NCBI RefSeq assembly: GCF_006345805.1
Contig: NW_021824779.1
Coordinates: 1-18,110 of the forward strand
Length of the DNA: 18,110 nucleotides
Direction of reading: 5' to 3'
Origin: Octopus sinensis
Lineage: Eukaryota
The notes under the pieces were generated by a model. It made no database searches. It was not told the origin of the DNA and saw only the letters and a list, made by a program, of their open reading frames with translations. A program made the translations under genes and the position numbers. Positions 422 through 17,160 of the stretch are shown in pieces (the stretch's first letter is position 1; every line of letters starts with the position of its first letter).

Positions 422-622
422 AAATAATTAGAAAATGGAGAAAACATCAGATCAACCAACACATCGATTGGACCACATTTATAGCTTATTTTTAAATACA
501 AAGCATCACATAACAAAATAGATGACGTAACATATCTCATTCTTTGTATTAAAAAATAAGCTACAAATGTGGTTCAATCGATGTGTTTGCTAATTTGTGG
601 TTTTCTCTGTTTTCTAATTATT
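422..622. repeat. Long imperfect inverted repeat (fold-back element), ~80-bp arms, ~38-bp spacer
   Basis: Left arm aaataattagaaaatggagaaaac...cacatcgattggaccacatttatagcttatttttaaatacaaag (422-503) is the reverse complement of ctttgtattaaaaaataagctacaaatgtggttcaatcgatgtg...gttttctctgttttctaattattt (542-622). A unique tail follows to ~790, then (TA)n. Confidence 0.9.
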
Positions 623-812
623 TACATTGGTTCCTGATAAACTATTGTTTATCATTTTGTTACCTGTACTCTACGTGCATGGAGTGCCTGCACAACAATA
701 CCCGGGGATAACACGGGTAACGGATACCGATAGTACATACGGATATTTTATCCCTTAGTTGGTTACTATAACCGCTAACTCTATTTGCGTATAAATATAT
801 ATATATATATAT

Positions 813-1962
813 ATACTAACTGATGTACCAGGTAATTCCCAGGAGTAAAGATGTTCGATTGAAATGCCTTATTAATCCGATATAAATAAGCAGTTTCGTT
901 ATAACTGCCACAAAAGGTGTATTTTTCCGTCACGAAAAAGTACAAAACAACTTTCAGCTAGAGGAATGAGAGAGATTGTTAGAGGTTGGCGAGAGAGGTT
1001 TTCGGAGGTTGGCGAGAGGCAAGGACATTATTCTGCTTAGCGGAGGCGTCTGGGAAATGTATAACTGCTATCATTCATAGAAAAACTATTGTTTTACAGT
1101 GAGAAAAGTGCTGTTATAGTATAAAGTGAAATTTGGCATTCGAGGATCAAATCCACGCTATGCCTGCATGAAGCCACTACAAATACATTGTGGAATAAAA
1201 ACAATTTATCTACTGTCATGGAGAAAGAGTAACTGTAAAAATGCAGAATTATCGGGGTAATGAGCATTCAAAAAAGAATGTATGTATGGTAATGTATGAA
1301 TGAAGTCTTTCAGGTTTAAGATTCAAATTAAGGAAATGCAATAATAATGTTTAACAGTTCAAAACTGTGAATAGTGAAATGCAGAATTATATCGGCTGAT
1401 CCTGAGAATAAAATAGTGATCGCTTCGCTAAAATATGCAGGTGGTATGGGTTATTTCCCTTGGGTTGTTTAAATAAAATATTAGTAATATGTAGTAGAGA
1501 GAAGGATCCATTGGAAGGTCCCTATTATCAATTTTTTTCAATAATCTAAGTATGTCACGAGGTTTCCAGACATGAGTTCTATTCACGTGTCAAATAAAGT
1601 ATAAAAGTGATACTGTCTGCATAAATTATAAATAGGACACACAAAAAATCAATATTCAAAGTAATCAAACATAAACAATGAAATGGGTTCTTTCCCTTGA
1701 GGGTTTTAAAAAAATATTGTACAAGTGCTATGGTTTATTTCCCTTGGGTGTTTAAAAAGAAATTAGTTATATGATGTAGATATAAAGGTACCTTCCAGGG
1801 GCTATATTATCGATTTTTTCAACAATCTAAGTATGTCACGGGATTTCCAGACATGAGTTCTACTCACGCGTCAAATTTCAACTAAATCAATAAAACGATG
1901 TGGGAGGAGTTAGCTAACAACGCCACAAACAACCACACACTGATTTTCCACATATGTAGTAT
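813..1962 (-). mobile_element. Non-autonomous Helitron-like rolling-circle element (Lep1/DINE-like architecture)
   Basis: Sits between (TA)n tracts. The minus strand ends in a decayed GC-rich hairpin followed by ..GTTAGT (CTAGT-like). The other end carries gtcaaatttcaactaaatcaataaaacgatgtgggaggagttag...acaaacaaccacac...tagtata, resembling the ccaaatttcatcaaaatcgg...agtata end of invertebrate non-autonomous Helitrons. Short terminal inverted match atacta/tagtat and internal direct repeats. Family assignment is by recalled motif similarity. Confidence 0.65.
1446..1876. repeat. Internal ~150-bp direct repeat (two diverged copies, period ~283 bp) plus a partial third copy at ~1683
   Basis: tatgggttatttcccttggg...aatctaagtatgtcacgaggtttccagacatgagttctattcacgtgtcaaat (1446-1595) versus tatggtttatttcccttggg...aatctaagtatgtcacgggatttccagacatgagttctactcacgcgtcaaat (1729-1876). 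Confidence 0.92.
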
Positions 1963-2069
1963 AAATATATATGTATTATATATATAGATATAGATATATA
2001 TATATATAATATATATATATATATATACACTATATATATATACTATATTTAAAGCAGCAGAAATTAACA

Positions 2070-2113
2070 AAAGCAGTTACTCAGTTTCACGTTCCCGTTC
2101 GTCGGACAGTTTT
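2070..2113 (-). ncRNA. Second (inverted) copy of the hammerhead motif
   Basis: Minus strand reads aaaactgt-CCGACGA-ACG-ggaa-CGT-GAAAC-tga-GTA-actgcttt. Relative to the plus copy, stem III is 2 nt shorter and stem I has one extra mismatch. Confidence 0.65.
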
Positions 2114-2116
2114 AAC

Positions 2117-2162
2117 AAAACTGTCCGACGAACGGGAACGTGAAACTCTGAGTAACAGCTTT
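2117..2162 (+). ncRNA. Minimal type I hammerhead ribozyme motif, U4C core variant
   Basis: Stem I aaaaCTGT/ACAGcttt; core CCGACGA (2125-2131); stem II ACG-ggaa-CGT with GNRA loop; GAAA (2142-2145); near-palindromic stem III ACTC-T-GAGT; GUA cleavage triplet (2152-2154). Confidence 0.75.
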
Positions 2163-2369
2163 TGTTGTAATCTGCTGCTTTTGAATAAAGCATATTACTC
2201 TACCAATGGTATTTGAGTACTCTTTTTCCACCTGTTTCACATTTATGTGCTTACTCCGGATATATATATATATATAATAATATATATATATATGTAAGCA
2301 AAATAGCTAGTCGTAAAATCTCAAGATTTCAGTGTAATAACTATACTAAGAAGTAAAATCATTGGCCAC

Positions 2370-5448: not shown

Positions 5449-5497
<49 letters not shown>

Positions 5498-6366
5498 TGT
5501 GTGTGTGTGTGTGTCTGTGTGTATGTGTGTGTGTGTATGTGTGTGCGTGTGTGTACATACATATATATACATATATATGCATAAGTACAAATATACATTT
5601 ATCTATATAAATATTATATATATATATACATATATATATATTATGCTACATATATATGTGTGTGAATAACTTGACTTATAATACGGTTCTATATTCAAGA
5701 GATGAGGAATTATGTTCATTATTTACGTTGTTTACATTTGACGGATATTTGTCCTCATCTTGTTTGTTGTTAACACAACGTTTTGGCTAAAATGCCCCAA
5801 TTATGGAGTGAATTTTAGGGCTTATAAATCTAATATTTTCCTATTCTTCCTTAATACCAGTTTGACCAAAGCCTTGTGAGTGGATTTGGTAGGCAGAAAC
5901 TGAAAGAAGCCCGTCGTATGTGTGTGTGTGTGTATGTGTGTGTGTGTTGTGTGTGTCTGTGTGTAGTGTGTGTTGTATGTGTGTGCGTGTGTGTACATAC
6001 ATATATATACATATATATGCATAAGTACAAATATACATTTATCTATATAAATATATATATATATATACATATATATAAGATATATATATGCATACATATA
6101 TATGTGTGTGAATAACTTGACTTATAATACGGTTCTATATTCAAGAGATGAGGAATTATGTTCATTATTTACGTTGTTTACATTTGACGGATATTTGTCC
6201 TCATCTTGTTTGTTGTTAACACAACGTTTTGGCTAAAATGCCCCAATTATGGAGTGAATTTTAGGGCTTATAAATCTAATATTTTCCTATTCTTCCTTAA
6301 TACCAGTTTGACCAAAGCCTTGTGAGTGGATTTGGTAGGCAGAAACTGAAAGAAGCCCGTCGTATG
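5449..6366. repeat. Tandem duplication, unit ~445 bp, with (GT)n at the unit boundaries
   Basis: The unique segments 5664-5920 and 6110-6366 read identical; ataagtacaaatatacatttatct occurs at 5581 and 6021. Confidence 0.95.
5863..5920 (+). mobile_element. SINE family A internal fragment (duplicated portion)
   Basis: gaccaaagccttgtgagtggatttggtaggcagaaactgaaagaagcccgtcgtat, as in the other family A copies. Confidence 0.85.
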
Positions 6367-6581
6367 TGTGTGTGTGTGTATGTGTGTATGTTTGTGTGTG
6401 TGTGTGTGTGTGTGTGCTTGTGTGTTACGTTCCCGTAACTTGGTTCGGCCTAAGAGTCTAACAGAAGTATTAGGCTTACAAAGAATAAGTCCTGGGGTGA
6501 TTTGTTCGACTAAATGTGGTACTCCAGCATGGCCACAATCAAATGACTGAAACCAGTAAAAGAATAAAAGGATAAAAGAAT
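6309..6581 (+). mobile_element. 5'-truncated SINE family A copy
   Basis: gaccaaagccttgtgagtgg...(GT)n...cccgtaactt...gaataagtcctggggtgatttgttcgactaaa...ctccagcatggccacaatcaaatgactgaaaccagtaaaagaataaaag. Confidence 0.88.
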
Positions 6582-6760
6582 ATTTATATACAAAATGTAA
6601 TTTAGAAAGATGATTCCATCAGAATCCTTTCCATTTGTAGAAATGAATATATTGGTCACAAAATGACATCAGATTTAGCAGACGGAATGGTACTTTGTCT
6701 TCAAGAGAATAAGAATCTCAGAACTTTTGTTTCGAGAGAAGCCTTTCAGCACATAACAAA

Positions 6761-6982
6761 GGCGGCGAACTGGCAGAATGGTTAGCACGCCAGGCGAAAT
6801 GCTTGGCGGTATTTCGTCTGCCGCTACGTTCTGAGTTCAAATTAGGCCGAGGTCGACTTTGCCTTTCATCCTTTCGGGGTCGATTAAATAAGTAGCAGTT
6901 ATGCACTTGGGTCGATATAATCGACTTAATCCATTTGTCTGTCCCCTCTATGTGTAGCTCCTTGTGGGCAATAAAGAAATAA
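6761..6982 (+). mobile_element. tRNA-derived SINE family B (MetaSINE-like central domain)
   Basis: A box TGGCAGAATGG, B box GAGTTCAAATT, central gactttgcctttcatcctttcggggtcgattaaataagta, A-rich tail. A second copy lies at 16411-16627 on the minus strand. Confidence 0.88.
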
Positions 6983-7857: not shown

Positions 7858-8227
7858 TTTATTCTTTTACTTGTTTCAGTCATTTGAATGCAGCCATGCT
7901 GGAGCACCGCCTTTGACCAAACAAATCGACCCCAGGTCTTATTCTTTGTAAGTCTAGTACTTATTCTATCAGTGTCTTTTGCCGAACCGCTAGTTACGGG
8001 GACGTGGACACCCCAACATCGGTTGTCAAGTGATGGTGGGGGACAAAGACACACGCACATATACGACGGGCTTCTTTCAGTTTCCGTCTACCAAATCCAT
8101 TCACAAGGCTTTGGTCGACCCGAGGCTATAGCAGAAGACACTTGCCCAAGGTACCACGCAGTGGGACTGAACCCGGAGCCATGTGGTTGGTAAGCAAACT
8201 ACTTACCACACAGCCACTCTTCCTGCC
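7858..8227 (-). mobile_element. Near full-length SINE family A (tRNA head, CORE-like domain, internal microsatellite)
   Basis: Minus strand: gagtggctgtgtggtaagtag...GGTTCAGTCCC...ccttgggcaagtgtcttct...gactgaaacaagtaaaagaata. Collinear with 12548-12965 and 16770-17160. Confidence 0.92.
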
Positions 8228-9515: not shown

Positions 9516-9729
9516 GGTAGTGGCGGTGATGGTGGTGTTTATGGTGGTGGCGGTGGTGGTGGTAGTGGTGGTTGTGGTTGTTACCGTGACAGCGGTGGCA
9601 ATGGCGGTGGTGTTTGGTTGTAGTGGCGTTGAGATTGCTGTGATACTAGTGATGGTCGATGTGATGGTGATGGTGGTGGTGGTGGTGGTGGTGGTGTGGT
9701 GGTGGTGGTGGTGGTGGTGGTGGTGGTGT
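9516..9729. repeat. Degenerate-to-pure (GGT)n repeat
   Basis: Visible; directly abuts the downstream break of the LINE fragment. Confidence 0.95.
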
Positions 9730-10850
9730 CCTGGTAGTTTCTTGGAGGTAGGCATTGATCCTGGGTTGCTATGATAAACCCTTTTGTCTCTGATTTTAAG
9801 CTAGAGGCCATTAACCATTGATGGGTAAGGACTTTGTCAACATCAACATTATTAGCTCTCTTTGGGTATTTGCCATTGAGAGGTTTTTCTTGCCATTTAT
9901 CAGTAAGAATATCCAAGGCAGCAGTTTTAGCACGGGTTTTCATAAATTTGCCTTTTTCTGCGCTAGTTTTCAGTACATTTGCCTGTCTTGTTACTGAGTA
10001 GTATGCGGTTTTCTTGTTTTCGTAATTCAAGCTAAGTTTTAGCATCCAGTCATCCGAATTTTTCCGATAAGGCCACTTATGGCAATCTTCATTGTCAATT
10101 CCAGCAGCAAGAGTCCACGACCACCCTCTTTACTTCGCAGGTAAAGTCACCTGAGAGTAGTGTATTCTATTCATTGTCAACAGTTTTCGAATTTTTGGTC
10201 AAGCTTACATATTTCAGTAATTGACCAGTTAATAATATTAAAACTGTAAGTCACAACCGCTGTGGCTAAAGTATTAATCGCTTCGATTGTATTTCTTGCA
10301 TTCAGCTCTGTCTTGAGTATTGCCCTTAACCTGCGATAACGTTCCTTTCTGATCTTTTCCCTCAACATTGAATGACTGATACCATCACCTTCAAATACCC
10401 CTAAGTATTTGTAACCTTCCTCTGGTTATAACTCCTTTATAACATTCTCTTGGTCAAGTTTAACGTTGGATGTTTCTGTCAGATTCACTCTGATAGAGGT
10501 AGCTTTTGTGCATTTATCTAAACCAAATTCCATTCTGATGTTACCTATTCAACTGTTTTACAATTGCTAGTAGACCCTGTAGTTGCTGGTAATTTTTTGC
10601 GAAAACCTTTAAATCATCCATGTAAAAGAGATGATTTATAGTTTTGTTAAACATTTTACAGCCATATTGTGCTTCATCGAGCAATTTGGAAAGAGGTATT
10701 AAGGCTAGACAAAAGAGGAGTAATGGATACAGAGTCACCCAGGAAAATGGCACATGAAATTCTTACATTCCCAGAATTCAACGATTCATTCTCACTATTC
10801 AAAGCTACTGTAGTTTTCCGTGAATACTTACAGATAAGAAGATTCGCAGA
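9730..10850 (-). pseudogene. Decayed non-LTR retrotransposon ORF fragment, R4/Dong-like clade (RT domain and downstream region)
   Basis: Motifs in order across frameshifts and stops: ISCAIFLGDS (GIFQGDS-like), LLFCLALIPLS, INHLFYMDDLKVFAKN, IRMEFGLDKC, YKYLG, ELNARNTIEAINTLA, YSFNIINW, LYLRSKEGGRGL, WQEKPLNG, SETKGFIIATQDQCL..RNYQ. Truncated at both ends. Confidence 0.92.
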
Positions 10851-12547: not shown

Positions 12548-12965
12548 CTTTACTCTTTTACTCTTTTACTCTTTTACTTGTTTCAGTCATTTGACTGCGA
12601 CCATGCTGGAGCATCGCCTTTAGTCGAGCAAATCGACCCCGATACTTATTCTTTTTGTAAGCCCAGTACTTATTCTATCGGTCACTTTTTGCCGAATCGC
12701 TAAGTGACGGGGACGTAAACACACCAGCATCGGTTGTCAAGCAAAGCTAGGGGAACAAACACAGACACACAAACACACACACATACATATATATATATAT
12801 ACGACAGGCTTCTTTCAGTTTCCGTCTACCAAATCCACTCACAAGGCATTGGTCGACCCGGGGCTATAGTAGAAGACACTTGCCCAAGATGCCACGCAGT
12901 GGGACTGAACCCGGAACCATGTGGTTGGTTAGCAAGCTACTTACCACACAGCCACTCCTGCGCCT
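12548..12965 (-). mobile_element. Full-length SINE family A with (AGTAAAAG)n tail
   Basis: Minus strand starts aggcgcaggagtggctgtgtggtaagtagc, has a B-box-like GGTTCAGTCCC, an internal (TA)/(TG) microsatellite, and ends gactgaaacaagtaaaag-agtaaaag-agtaaaag. Confidence 0.94.
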
Positions 12966-13197
12966 ATTTGAACAGATTCAAAATATATGAGCAACTTCCA
13001 CCAATATCAAGCACCACAGAAAAAGCAGTCGTTATTGTTGTTACTGTTGTTGTTTACGTTCTTTAACACTTATCCATGAGGGTGTACATGAGAGCTGAAC
13101 CTGAGGACTACGTAGTCGCAAGGTGGACTTCTTAACCGCACAATCAGAGTTCGAATTACGTGCCGAAAGGAAAGGAAAGAAAAAAATGTTGATTTCA

Positions 13198-15870: not shown

Positions 15871-15872
<2 letters not shown>

Positions 15873-16144
15873 GGAAGGGAGTAGATAAAATTCGGACTAC
15901 ATATGTTTCATAGCGAGCGGAAGCTCAGAAGCGGTGAATATCCAAACGAGGCTAGTCTTCAGGCCAAGGGTATCGAATCCTCTGTATATTAACAGGGGTC
16001 TCCTGACTACTAAACTTCATCTAATTAAGATACCCCTGGCCTGAACAGTGGCCTGTGGTTAACACCTCGCTTGGATGGTTACTACTTCCGAGGATCCGCT
16101 CGCTATGAAAACATGTGTAACCCGGATTTTGTCTACTCCATTCC
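15873..16144. mobile_element. MITE-like element with ~80-bp imperfect terminal inverted repeats and an inner inverted repeat
   Basis: ggagtagataaaattcggactacatatgtttcatagcgagcgga...atccaaacgagg versus cctcgcttggat...tccgctcgctatgaaaacatgtgtaacccggattttgtctactcc; inner pair ttcaggccaagggtatc / gatacccctggcctgaa. Confidence 0.85.
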
Positions 16145-16360
16145 TTAATTCATGAATTTTTATTCACATACCCGGAAACCCTGGCTGCCTACTGAGAAAT
16201 ATAAAGTAATCTTTATTCAGTTTATCGTACTGCGATACGGAAAGAATCCGCAAGCTTCAACCCCGATAAACCACTGAAAGTTGTTTTTTTCTTTTTTATA
16301 TATTTTCTACGAATTACTTGAAGCTCACTTTCTTCCTATACCCTGATCGTTGGAACTTAC

Positions 16361-16410: not shown

Positions 16411-16625
16411 TTTTTTTTACTACCCACAAGGGGCTAAACACAGAGAGGACAAACAAGGACAGACAAACGGATTAAGTCGATTACATCGACCCCAGCGCGT
16501 AACTGGTACTTAATTTATCGATTCCGAAAGGATGAAAGGCAAAGTTGACCTCGGCGGAATTTGAACTCGGAACGTAACGACAGAAGAAGTACAGCTACGC
16601 ATTTCGCCCGGCGTGCTAACGTTTC

Positions 16626-16627
<2 letters not shown>
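16411..16627 (-). mobile_element. SINE family B copy
   Basis: Reverse complement of 6761-6982 (gaaacgttagcacgccgggcgaaatgc...gagttcaaattccgccgaggtcaactttgcctttcatcctttcg...ccttgtggg). Confidence 0.9.
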
Positions 16628-16768: not shown

Positions 16769-16769
<1 letters not shown>

Positions 16770-16770
<1 letters not shown>

Positions 16771-17160
16771 GGCACAGCGTGGCTATGTGGCAAGAAGCTT
16801 GCTTCCCAACCACATGGTTCTAAGTTCAATTCCACTGTGTGGCACCTTGGGTAAATATCATCTAATATAGCCTCAGGATGACCAAAGCCTTGTGAGTGGA
16901 TTTGGGAGATGGAAACTGAAAGAAGCCCATCATATGCATGTTTATATTTGTATGTGTCTGTGTTTGTCCCCCACCAGAGCTTGAATATCGATATTAGTGT
17001 GTTTATGTTCCCGTAACTTAGCGGATTGGCAAAAGTGACTAATAGAATAAGTACTAGACTTACAAAAAACAAGTCCTGGGGTCGAATTGTTCGTCTAAAG
17101 GCGGTTCTCCACTATGGCTACAGTCAAAATGACTGAAACAAGTATAAGCATAAAAGAATA
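16770..17160 (+). mobile_element. Full-length, more diverged SINE family A
   Basis: aggcacagcgtggctatgtggcaagaagc...aagttcaattcc...ccttgggtaaatatc...gactgaaacaagtataagcataaaagaata. Confidence 0.92.

What the first reader, a model, noticed from the sequence alone, without database searches (positions are those of the whole stretch)
2051..2260. Palindromic mini-element built from two divergent hammerhead ribozymes with a variant CCGACGA core
Seen: a 131-bp fold-back with a 3-nt loop. Each arm, read outward from the centre, has every hammerhead element in the right order: stem I CTGT/ACAG, C-C-G-A-C-G-A, 3-bp stem II capped by GGAA, GAAA, self-complementary stem III ACTC-T-GAGT, and a GUA triplet. 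U4 is replaced by C in both arms. The element has no ORF and sits in (TA)n. Established: minimal type I hammerheads with palindromic stem III occur in Penelope-like element terminal repeats, cleave as dimers, and PLEs often carry an inverted partial terminal repeat. Inference: this is a non-autonomous, ribozyme-bearing PLE-derived element of ~210 bp. A standard CUGANGA search would miss it. The shared U4C could be a family trait or one mutation copied during inversion.
Basis: partly seen in the sequence, partly recalled or inferred. Interest (0 to 1): 0.8.

Follow-up and report, generated by a model that had tools for sequence, protein, structure and literature searches.

The report
Truncated Penelope retroelement with variant hammerhead
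This palindrome is two short, head-to-head copies of the end of an abundant Penelope-type jumping gene, likely joined during one insertion, and its family carried a hammerhead-ribozyme motif with a normally damaging core letter through over a thousand copies, which likely makes it a natural test of what these ribozymes do.

Summary
The element (2043-2259) is real, but it is not a dedicated non-autonomous double ribozyme. It is two 5'-truncated terminal-repeat copies of a Penelope-like retroelement (likely Hydra clade; RT + GIY-YIG ORF) joined head to head in (TA)n. The right arm is a complete type I hammerhead; the left arm has lost 2 nt of stem III and a stem I pair. Fold-back pairing buries both cores. 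U4C is a family trait: 1,099 exact C4 copies against 85 U4, a level close to CpG decay. The 38-nt ribozyme is unchanged between two C4 subfamilies whose flanks differ by 30% (p=1e-5). C4 copies run into their own ORFs, and the youngest subfamily has canonical U4, likely a reversion. In 30 of 31 inverted pairs exactly one arm has the 70-nt tail, and none has two. 5' ends pile up 0-13 nt upstream of the ribozyme (40 of 74 against 5 expected), not at the cleavage site. Likely mechanism: two internally primed cDNAs run off the transcript's 5' end and join by microhomology. Cleavage and the start site are untested. New variant of a known kind.

The parts
2043..2259 (.). Whole insertion: two head-to-head 5'-truncated terminal-repeat (pLTR) copies of a Penelope-like element
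2110..2259 (+). Sense arm with tail; begins 11 nt upstream of stem I, inside the family's 5'-end hot spot
   Evidence: sense 5' end -11; closest to the window-type subfamily; 88% identical to the young autonomous pLTR
2121..2158 (+). Complete type I hammerhead motif; core CCGACGA 2125-2131, C4 at 2126, palindromic stem III 2145-2153, predicted cleavage after 2154
   Evidence: stem III self-duplex -7.9 kcal/mol
2184..2190 (+). AATAAAG: first family 3' end point (inferred RT start site 1; may also be a polyA signal)
   Evidence: tail-less copies end here in (TA)n
2191..2259 (+). Optional ~70-nt tail ending CCGG (inferred RT start site 2); in tandem units it runs on into the ORF start
2043..2113 (-). 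Inverted, tail-less arm ending at end point 1
2074..2109 (-). Decayed hammerhead copy (C4 core; 2-nt stem III deletion; stem I mismatch)
2110..2116 (.). Junction: 4-nt TTTT shared by both arms (microhomology) and the AAC loop
   Evidence: upstream family sequence
1960..2048 (.). Left (TA)n target tract (overlaps the end of the left arm)
2260..2293 (.). Right (TA)n target tract

Best explanation
The element is two head-to-head, 5'-truncated copies of the terminal repeat of a Penelope-like retroelement family with its own RT and GIY-YIG ORF, likely of the Hydra clade and likely made in one insertion event in a (TA)n tract. Inferred mechanism: the element's protein nicks both strands of AT-rich DNA and primes reverse transcription at two internal sites of the RNA (after AATAAAG, and after the tail). 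When the 5' pLTR is the template, both cDNAs would run off the transcript's 5' end, likely at an initiator-like site 12-13 nt upstream of the hammerhead, and anneal by microhomology. That gives a palindrome with one tailed and one tail-less arm. The U4C hammerhead was the master state of several successive subfamilies and was kept unchanged while the flanks diverged. It is likely a slow, dimer- or protein-dependent ribozyme whose cleavage is not used to make insertion templates. The youngest subfamily likely reverted to U4 by CpG deamination. At this locus the ribozyme is likely inert, because read-through RNA folds back on it. Odds: identity as a truncated/inverted PLE insertion 0.93; twin internal priming 0.6; run-off at the transcript start 0.5; residual catalytic activity of C4 0.5; reversion polarity 0.75.
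For: SHOWN: the same 143-nt end bounds 3.35-kb tandem units with 720-770-aa open frames (RWK, DKT, YRDD, GIY-YIG-like, CxxC, CxH). C4-type ends are continuous with ORFs: L223 (C4 HHR, then ORF aa 1-429) and L226 (ORF aa 233-711, 3' UTR, C4 HHR). Exact 28-mers: C4 1,099; U4 in the same context 85; G5A control 53; young U4 subfamily 2,656. Copies chosen on upstream flank only: C4 in 21 of 30 (old) and 24 of 30 (window-type). Old vs window-type commonest letters: 0 of 38 differences in the HHR against 47 of 157 in flanks, Fisher p=1e-5. Of 60 C4 loci, 31 have an inverted arm reaching the ribozyme region; 30 of 31 have exactly one tailed arm, 1 has none, 0 have two (independent arms would give about 7). 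Among 99 arms chosen on downstream sequence, 40 of the 74 that reach stem I end at 0 to -13 (5.4 expected) and only 2 of 34 end at -14 to -30. PAPERS: two internal RT start sites bound the tail, both strands are cleaved and extended, and the HHR is protein-assisted and dispensable for insertion in vitro (PMC11167929). Inverted 5'-truncated copy, one-sided tail and (TA)n targeting (PMC8557442, PMC3846280). U4C lowers activity in vitro yet a viroid with it stays infectious (PMC3088659, citing Ambros and Flores 1998).
Against: No RNA data show the transcript start or any cleavage. The initiator-like YYANWYY consensus is recalled and common here (2.6% per position, with a second match at -23 to -26). 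The hot-spot sample is young and intermediate subfamilies, not the window's own, and arms of one pair are not independent. U4 copies exceed the G5A control (85 vs 53, p=0.008), so some U4 may be more than decay. The protein tree does not confirm the order: it weakly (83/87, unstarred) puts the young group sister to the C4 groups. Site patterns favour old-basal only with the nearest outgroup (18 vs 8, p=0.08; 9 vs 11 and 7 vs 6 with two others). Neutral HHR positions are also unchanged between old and window-type, so the constraint may not be catalytic, or the module may have been exchanged. Pfam and PDB gave no meaningful match to the ORF. The CxCX5C linker is absent from the 5 young ORFs tested. 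Mutations in the CUGA turn gave low activity in a full mutational scan (PMC9901934).
Confidence: 0.75

Rival explanations
1. A dedicated non-autonomous palindromic element with two working ribozymes, copied as a unit.
For: Such palindromes are common: both arms span the whole ribozyme in 25 of 60 C4 loci, and few copies carry ORF sequence within 4 kb.
Against: Junction positions vary from locus to locus. 29 of 60 loci lack an inverted arm reaching the ribozyme. C4 ends are continuous with ORFs. The left arm is decayed, and the core is predicted >99.9% paired in read-through RNA of either strand. The same palindromes form in the young U4 subfamily.
Confidence: 0.04
2. The inversion comes from self-priming or fold-back of one nascent strand (as proposed for rotifer PLEs), not from two primed cDNAs.
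For: The junction TTTT-AAC-AAAA can form a small hairpin. PMC3846280 reads palindromic junctions as self-priming on an antisense template.
Against: A fold-back copy should run through the tail, yet no pair has two tails (0 of 31) and the tail-less arm stops at the family's other end point. Many junctions are asymmetric, and solo copies end at the same hot spot.
Confidence: 0.2
3. The C4 motif is catalytically dead and was conserved for another reason: a protein-binding or RT-positioning fold, or overlap with an internal promoter.
For: No excess of 5' ends at the cleavage site (at most 3 of 98 compatible, 1.6 expected). Loop and N7 letters are also unchanged between two subfamilies. The HHR is dispensable for insertion in vitro (PMC11167929). 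D. virilis Penelope has an internal promoter (PMC2377424).
Against: Across all subfamilies, changes other than position 4 fall at hammerhead-tolerant sites: N7, loop 2, 11.1, stem III centre. The frame matches the canonical Hydra-2_aMil HHR of a coral. U4C keeps some activity in a viroid (PMC3088659).
Confidence: 0.4
4. The pile-up of 5' ends at 0 to -13 reflects RT stalling past the structured ribozyme, or preferred microhomologies (TTAA, CTAG, A-runs), not the RNA's 5' end.
For: Self-complementary 4-mers lie at about -7 to -10 in the young and window-type subfamilies. Ends are spread over 14 nt rather than one base.
Against: The edge at -13 is sharp (2 of 34 ends in the next 17 nt) and holds for solo copies. 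An initiator-like A lies at -12 in 20 of 23 window-type copies and at -13/-14 in 19 of 23 old copies.
Confidence: 0.4

Closest known systems
Hydra clade of C-terminal EN+ Penelope-like elements (Craig et al. 2021, PMC8557442), e.g. Hydra-2_aMil, Penelope-13_HM, Hydra-1_oBim
   Same: RWK, DKT, CxCX5C linker (in C4-linked ORFs), CxxC and CxH around the EN C-terminus, (TA)n targets. The HHR frame ctgt / actc-N-gagt / a / acag is as in Hydra-2_aMil. Penelope-13_HM has an inverted 5' copy with the HHR on the other strand.
   Different: All 26 Hydra-clade HHR rows in their File S2 have a ctga core; here several subfamilies have CCGA. The unit is 3.35 kb (theirs generally <3 kb) and the tail about 70 nt (theirs 30-40). 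The listed octopus family Hydra-1_oBim has a different HHR.
   Same: Type I, short stems, palindromic stem III, extra nucleotide after A9, mostly in truncated copies, sometimes in close opposite-strand pairs.
   Different: Their described core variant is U3-A8; I saw no C4 family in the parts read.
PAc Poseidon element of Anolis (Frangieh et al. 2024, PMC11167929)
   Same: Two internal end points bounding an optional tail downstream of the HHR; AT-rich targets.
   Different: Different clade, canonical core, HHR overlapping the ORF start. Arm asymmetry and a 5'-end hot spot were not reported in the parts read.
U4C viroid hammerhead variant (Ambros and Flores 1998, as cited in PMC3088659)
   Same: Same core substitution in a natural hammerhead.
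   Different: A variant in one viroid, not the master state of a multi-thousand-copy animal retroelement lineage.
Non-LTR retrozymes (bioRxiv 10.64898/2026.07.22.740005)
   Same: Non-coding, PLE-derived, type I HHR.
   Different: Retrozymes are head-to-tail tandem repeats; this is a head-to-head truncation product.

Membership tests
EN+ Penelope-like element | Single ORF with RT and C-terminal GIY-YIG endonuclease linked to this terminal sequence | tested here: met
   720-770-aa frames with YRDD and VVY..YTG between two copies of the end; C4 copies continuous with ORF remnants. Pfam gave no hit; a relative carries PF01541.
EN+ Penelope-like element | Partial tandem pLTRs, inverted 5'-truncated copy, tail on one end only | tested here: met
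Hydra clade | RWK motif and DKT in place of DKG | tested here: met
   RWK in 5 of 5 young ORFs; DKT in 3 of 5, EKT in 1, neither in 1
Hydra clade | CxCX5C linker | tested here: inconclusive
   Present in L226, L231, L074, L075; second C is F in 5 of 5 young ORFs and in L073, L229, L233
Hydra clade | CxxC and CxH flanking the conserved E and N; no CCHH | tested here: met
   CxxC and CxH in 5 of 5; absence of CCHH judged by eye only
Hydra clade | (TA)n insertion preference | tested here: met
   40 of 46 scorable 3' ends (of 60 loci) are followed by TA-rich sequence
Hydra clade | Phylogenetic placement with named Hydra RTs | not tested
   No named reference proteins were on hand as tool sequences; the outgroups are unnamed
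Type I hammerhead ribozyme | Stems I-III and GAAA/UH in order | tested here: met
   Right arm met, left arm not met
Type I hammerhead ribozyme | Canonical CUGANGA core | tested here: not met
   CCGACGA in the window and in 27 of 30 nearest loci; met in the young sister subfamily
Type I hammerhead ribozyme | Self-cleavage after the NUH triplet | not testable with these tools
   Genomic proxy shows no excess of 5' ends at the site
Non-LTR retrozyme / non-autonomous unit | Fixed unit copied as such, tandem HHRs on one strand | tested here: not met
   Variable junctions, opposite strands

The most novel reading that the evidence does not exclude
A Penelope lineage kept a U4C hammerhead under purifying selection through at least three subfamilies and thousands of insertions as a deliberately slowed, protein-gated ribozyme, then reverted to the canonical core at its latest and largest burst. 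Its palindromic minis are twin 'strong-stop' cDNAs that mark the transcript start and show in genomic data how PLE inverted repeats form.
Probability: 0.25. Interest if true: 0.7.

Novelty: new variant of a known kind. Interest (0 to 1): 0.45.

Why it matters
How PLEs form their inverted and tailed insertions, and what their hammerheads do, are stated open questions (PMC8557442, PMC11167929). This family supplies a natural matched pair of ribozymes: C4 and U4 versions differing at 2-5 of 38 positions, each with sequenced ORFs and over a thousand copies. Its genomic footprints (one tail per pair, a 5'-end edge just upstream of the ribozyme, no pile-up at the cleavage site) make twin internal priming directly testable. 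It also shows that CUGANGA descriptors miss roughly 40% of this family's hammerheads (42 of the first 100 of 7,020 matches). The single locus itself is an ordinary decayed insertion.

Tried and rejected
Rfam at E<=10: no hammerhead family matched; only low-score hairpin and simple-repeat hits. Pfam gave nothing for the 727-aa frame or the GIY-YIG fragments, and the PDB sequence search nothing meaningful. A pattern for a tail-to-ORF junction in the window-type subfamily found 0 matches; linkage was shown instead from fetched loci. One search had one N too many (36 indel variants) and was redone. Sequencing runs: no RNA holder listed. Contigs of four runs under three organism labels cover the stretch, with no row for a change at 2126; contigs cannot show starts, ends or cleavage, and divergent U4 copies may not have been laid, so this is not used as evidence. 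The raw inversion caller flagged 52 of 60 loci; 21 whose inverted match began 40 or more nt into the repeat were dropped as (TA)n or tail-only matches before the count of 31. A 3' splice site as the cause of the 5' edge was rejected: the AG exists only in young and intermediate subfamilies and lies at -7, not -13. Rooting by protein tree and site patterns was inconclusive. Lunse et al. and Ambros and Flores could not be read, and one supplementary file of PMC4209133 was not searchable; either could already describe C4 hammerheads in PLEs. Paper searches for U4C/CCGA hammerheads in PLEs or octopus listed no such report. Earlier scan findings: none.

Full report
Observation. The window is a simple-repeat-rich piece of a 2.72-Gb assembly; an octopus is my inference, not a tool result. 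Bases 2051-2183 fold into one hairpin with a 3-nt loop. The right arm, 2121-2158 (+), is a complete type I hammerhead motif with core CCGACGA and predicted cleavage after 2154. It is the only descriptor match in the window, against 0.005 per shuffled window (200 shuffles). The left arm, 2074-2109 (-), lacks 2 nt of stem III and one stem I pair and fails the descriptor. The insertion runs from 2043 to 2259 between (TA)n tracts. Read-through RNA of either strand leaves its core less than 0.1% unpaired, so the palindrome would silence rather than assemble the ribozymes.

Family. A DNA search with 2117-2260 gave 1,801 candidates, 40 scored. In the 30 loci fetched, the window among them, position 4 is C in 28 and T in 2. 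Two loci continued 1.4 kb upstream into a GIY-YIG C-terminus. That peptide retrieved 9,599 candidates, 150 scored. Of 20 regions fetched, most of the long-ORF ones hold 3.35-kb partial-tandem units: a 720-770-aa frame between copies of the same 143-nt end, often with an inverted 5' copy. The ORF has RWK, DKT, YRDD, a GIY-YIG-like motif, CxxC and CxH, the features Craig et al. give for the Hydra clade. The CxCX5C linker is present in four ORFs of the older, C4-type groups (L226, L231, L074, L075) but not in the five young ones tested. Pfam and PDB did not recognise the ORF. The protein search gave 1,076 relatives at E<=1e-20, nearly all unnamed. Placement among named Hydra proteins was not tested.

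C4 is a subfamily trait. Exact 28-mer counts: C4 1,099, U4 in the same context 85, G5A at the same CpG 53. U4 is therefore mostly CpG decay, with a modest excess (p=0.008). A young subfamily has canonical CUGAUGA in 2,656 exact copies. A degenerate pattern gave 7,020 matches; I counted 42 C, 57 T and 1 G at position 4 in the 100 listed. To avoid selecting on the ribozyme I searched with upstream flank alone: C4 stands in 21 of 30 old-type and 24 of 30 window-type copies. Mean distance from the column-commonest letter is 9.2% (old, n=30), 4.9% (window-type, n=30) and 1.4% (young, n=12); these are best-hit samples and read low. C4 copies have their own ORFs. In L223 the C4 repeat runs into aa 1-429 (56-60% identical to the young protein, decay included). 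In L226, aa 233-711 (79%) and the 3' UTR precede a C4 repeat.

Constraint and polarity. Old and window-type subfamilies differ at 0 of 38 ribozyme positions but 47 of 157 flank positions (Fisher p=1e-5). Differences to the intermediate and young groups fall at position 4, N7, loop 2, 11.1 and the stem III centre. So the motif was conserved while carrying C4; that selection favoured C4 itself is not shown. In the pLTR tree the young U4 group joins the two intermediate C4 copies (100/100), 2 ribozyme letters from them. With the age order, and with canonical cores in all 26 Hydra-clade rows of File S2, this suggests U to C early and C to U late. Against: the protein tree weakly places the young group sister to all C4 groups (83/87), and site patterns are not significant. 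I put reversion at 0.75.

How the palindrome forms. I took 60 C4 loci in genomic order from the first 100 listed. An inverted arm reaches the ribozyme region in 31 (21 further raw calls dropped as (TA)n or tail-only), and in 25 both arms span the whole ribozyme. Junctions vary. 3' ends fall at two points, after AATAAAG or after a 70-nt tail ending CCGG; 40 of 46 scorable ends abut TA-rich sequence. In 30 of 31 pairs exactly one arm is tailed, in 1 neither, in 0 both. This fits the Anolis PLE, whose protein cleaves and extends both strands and starts reverse transcription at two internal sites bounding the tail (PMC11167929). That each strand uses a different site is my inference. The window's arms share 4 nt at the junction.

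Where copies begin. I selected arms by sequence downstream of the ribozyme (6,213 matches; loci for 99 of the first 100 places; young and intermediate subfamilies) and mapped 99 arms. None begins exactly at the cleavage product and at most 3 are compatible with it (1.6 expected, p=0.21), so integrated templates were mostly uncut. In contrast, 40 of the 74 arms reaching stem I end 0-13 nt upstream of it (5.4 expected; nominal p=3e-26, paired arms not independent), and only 2 of 34 in the next 17 nt. The C4-selected sample shows the same cluster, and the window's sense arm begins at -11. The edge coincides with the A of an initiator-like YYANWYY (consensus recalled): -12 in 20 of 23 window-type and -13/-14 in 19 of 23 old copies, though the motif is common here. 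PLE pLTRs with initiator-like or internal promoters are reported (PMC3846280, PMC2377424). I infer run-off at the transcript's 5' end; stalling or microhomology preference is the rival.

Activity. Untested. The stem III palindrome forms a -7.9 kcal/mol self-duplex, while the monomer does not fold as a hammerhead, as expected for dimeric PLE hammerheads (PMC4209133, PMC6765202). U4C considerably lowers activity in vitro yet allowed viroid infectivity (PMC3088659). Changes in the CUGA turn gave low activity in a full scan (PMC9901934).

Papers seen. PMC4209133: parts 1-2 of 4 and passages of one supplement. PMC8557442: passages, section 11, supplement part 2 and passages. PMC11167929: parts 1-2 of 4. 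PMC3088659: section 8 and passages. PMC6765202: passages and part of section 11. PMC3846280, PMC2377424, PMC9901934, PMC6155905, PMC13282606: passages. bioRxiv 10.64898/2026.07.22.740005: part 1 of 5. Lunse et al. and Ambros and Flores: not seen. Searches listed no report of a C4 hammerhead family in PLEs; the unread papers and repeat databases could hold one.

Verdict. What is new is at family level: a conserved U4C hammerhead with a canonical young sister, and insertion footprints that bear on the PLE mechanism. New variant of a known kind; interest 0.45.

Noticed in passing
window 9581-10425 (-): Broken ORF pieces resembling a non-LTR retrotransposon of the R4/Dong type (label recalled); one unnamed homologue at 42%, no Pfam hit above cut-off.
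   Followed up: partly
window 5476-6425: 446-bp tandem duplication, 96% identical.
   Followed up: no
window 7858-8220, 12559-12966, 16769-17160, 6309-6582, 5864-5964: Five copies or pieces of a ~400-bp SINE-like repeat, 75-90% alike, also seen in many fetched loci.
   Followed up: no
window 6775-6979 and 16412-16626: Second dispersed repeat, 82% alike, opposite strands.
   Followed up: no
window 422-623, 2370-2531, 15872-16145: Three other imperfect palindromes (67-79%), MITE-like or truncated-inverted insertions of other families.
   Followed up: no
window 1438-1595 and 1722-1876: Direct repeat of about 158 bp, 82% alike.
   Followed up: no
L225 1371-1604 and 6401-6447: Three old-type repeat copies at one locus share another position-4 letter (core CAGAUGA); likely one mutated template or a local duplication.
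   Followed up: no
L064 1575-1640 and 9153-9998: An older C4 repeat copy and a fragment of a different PLE-like RT lie beside a full young unit, suggesting repeated insertion into the same TA-rich region.
   Followed up: no
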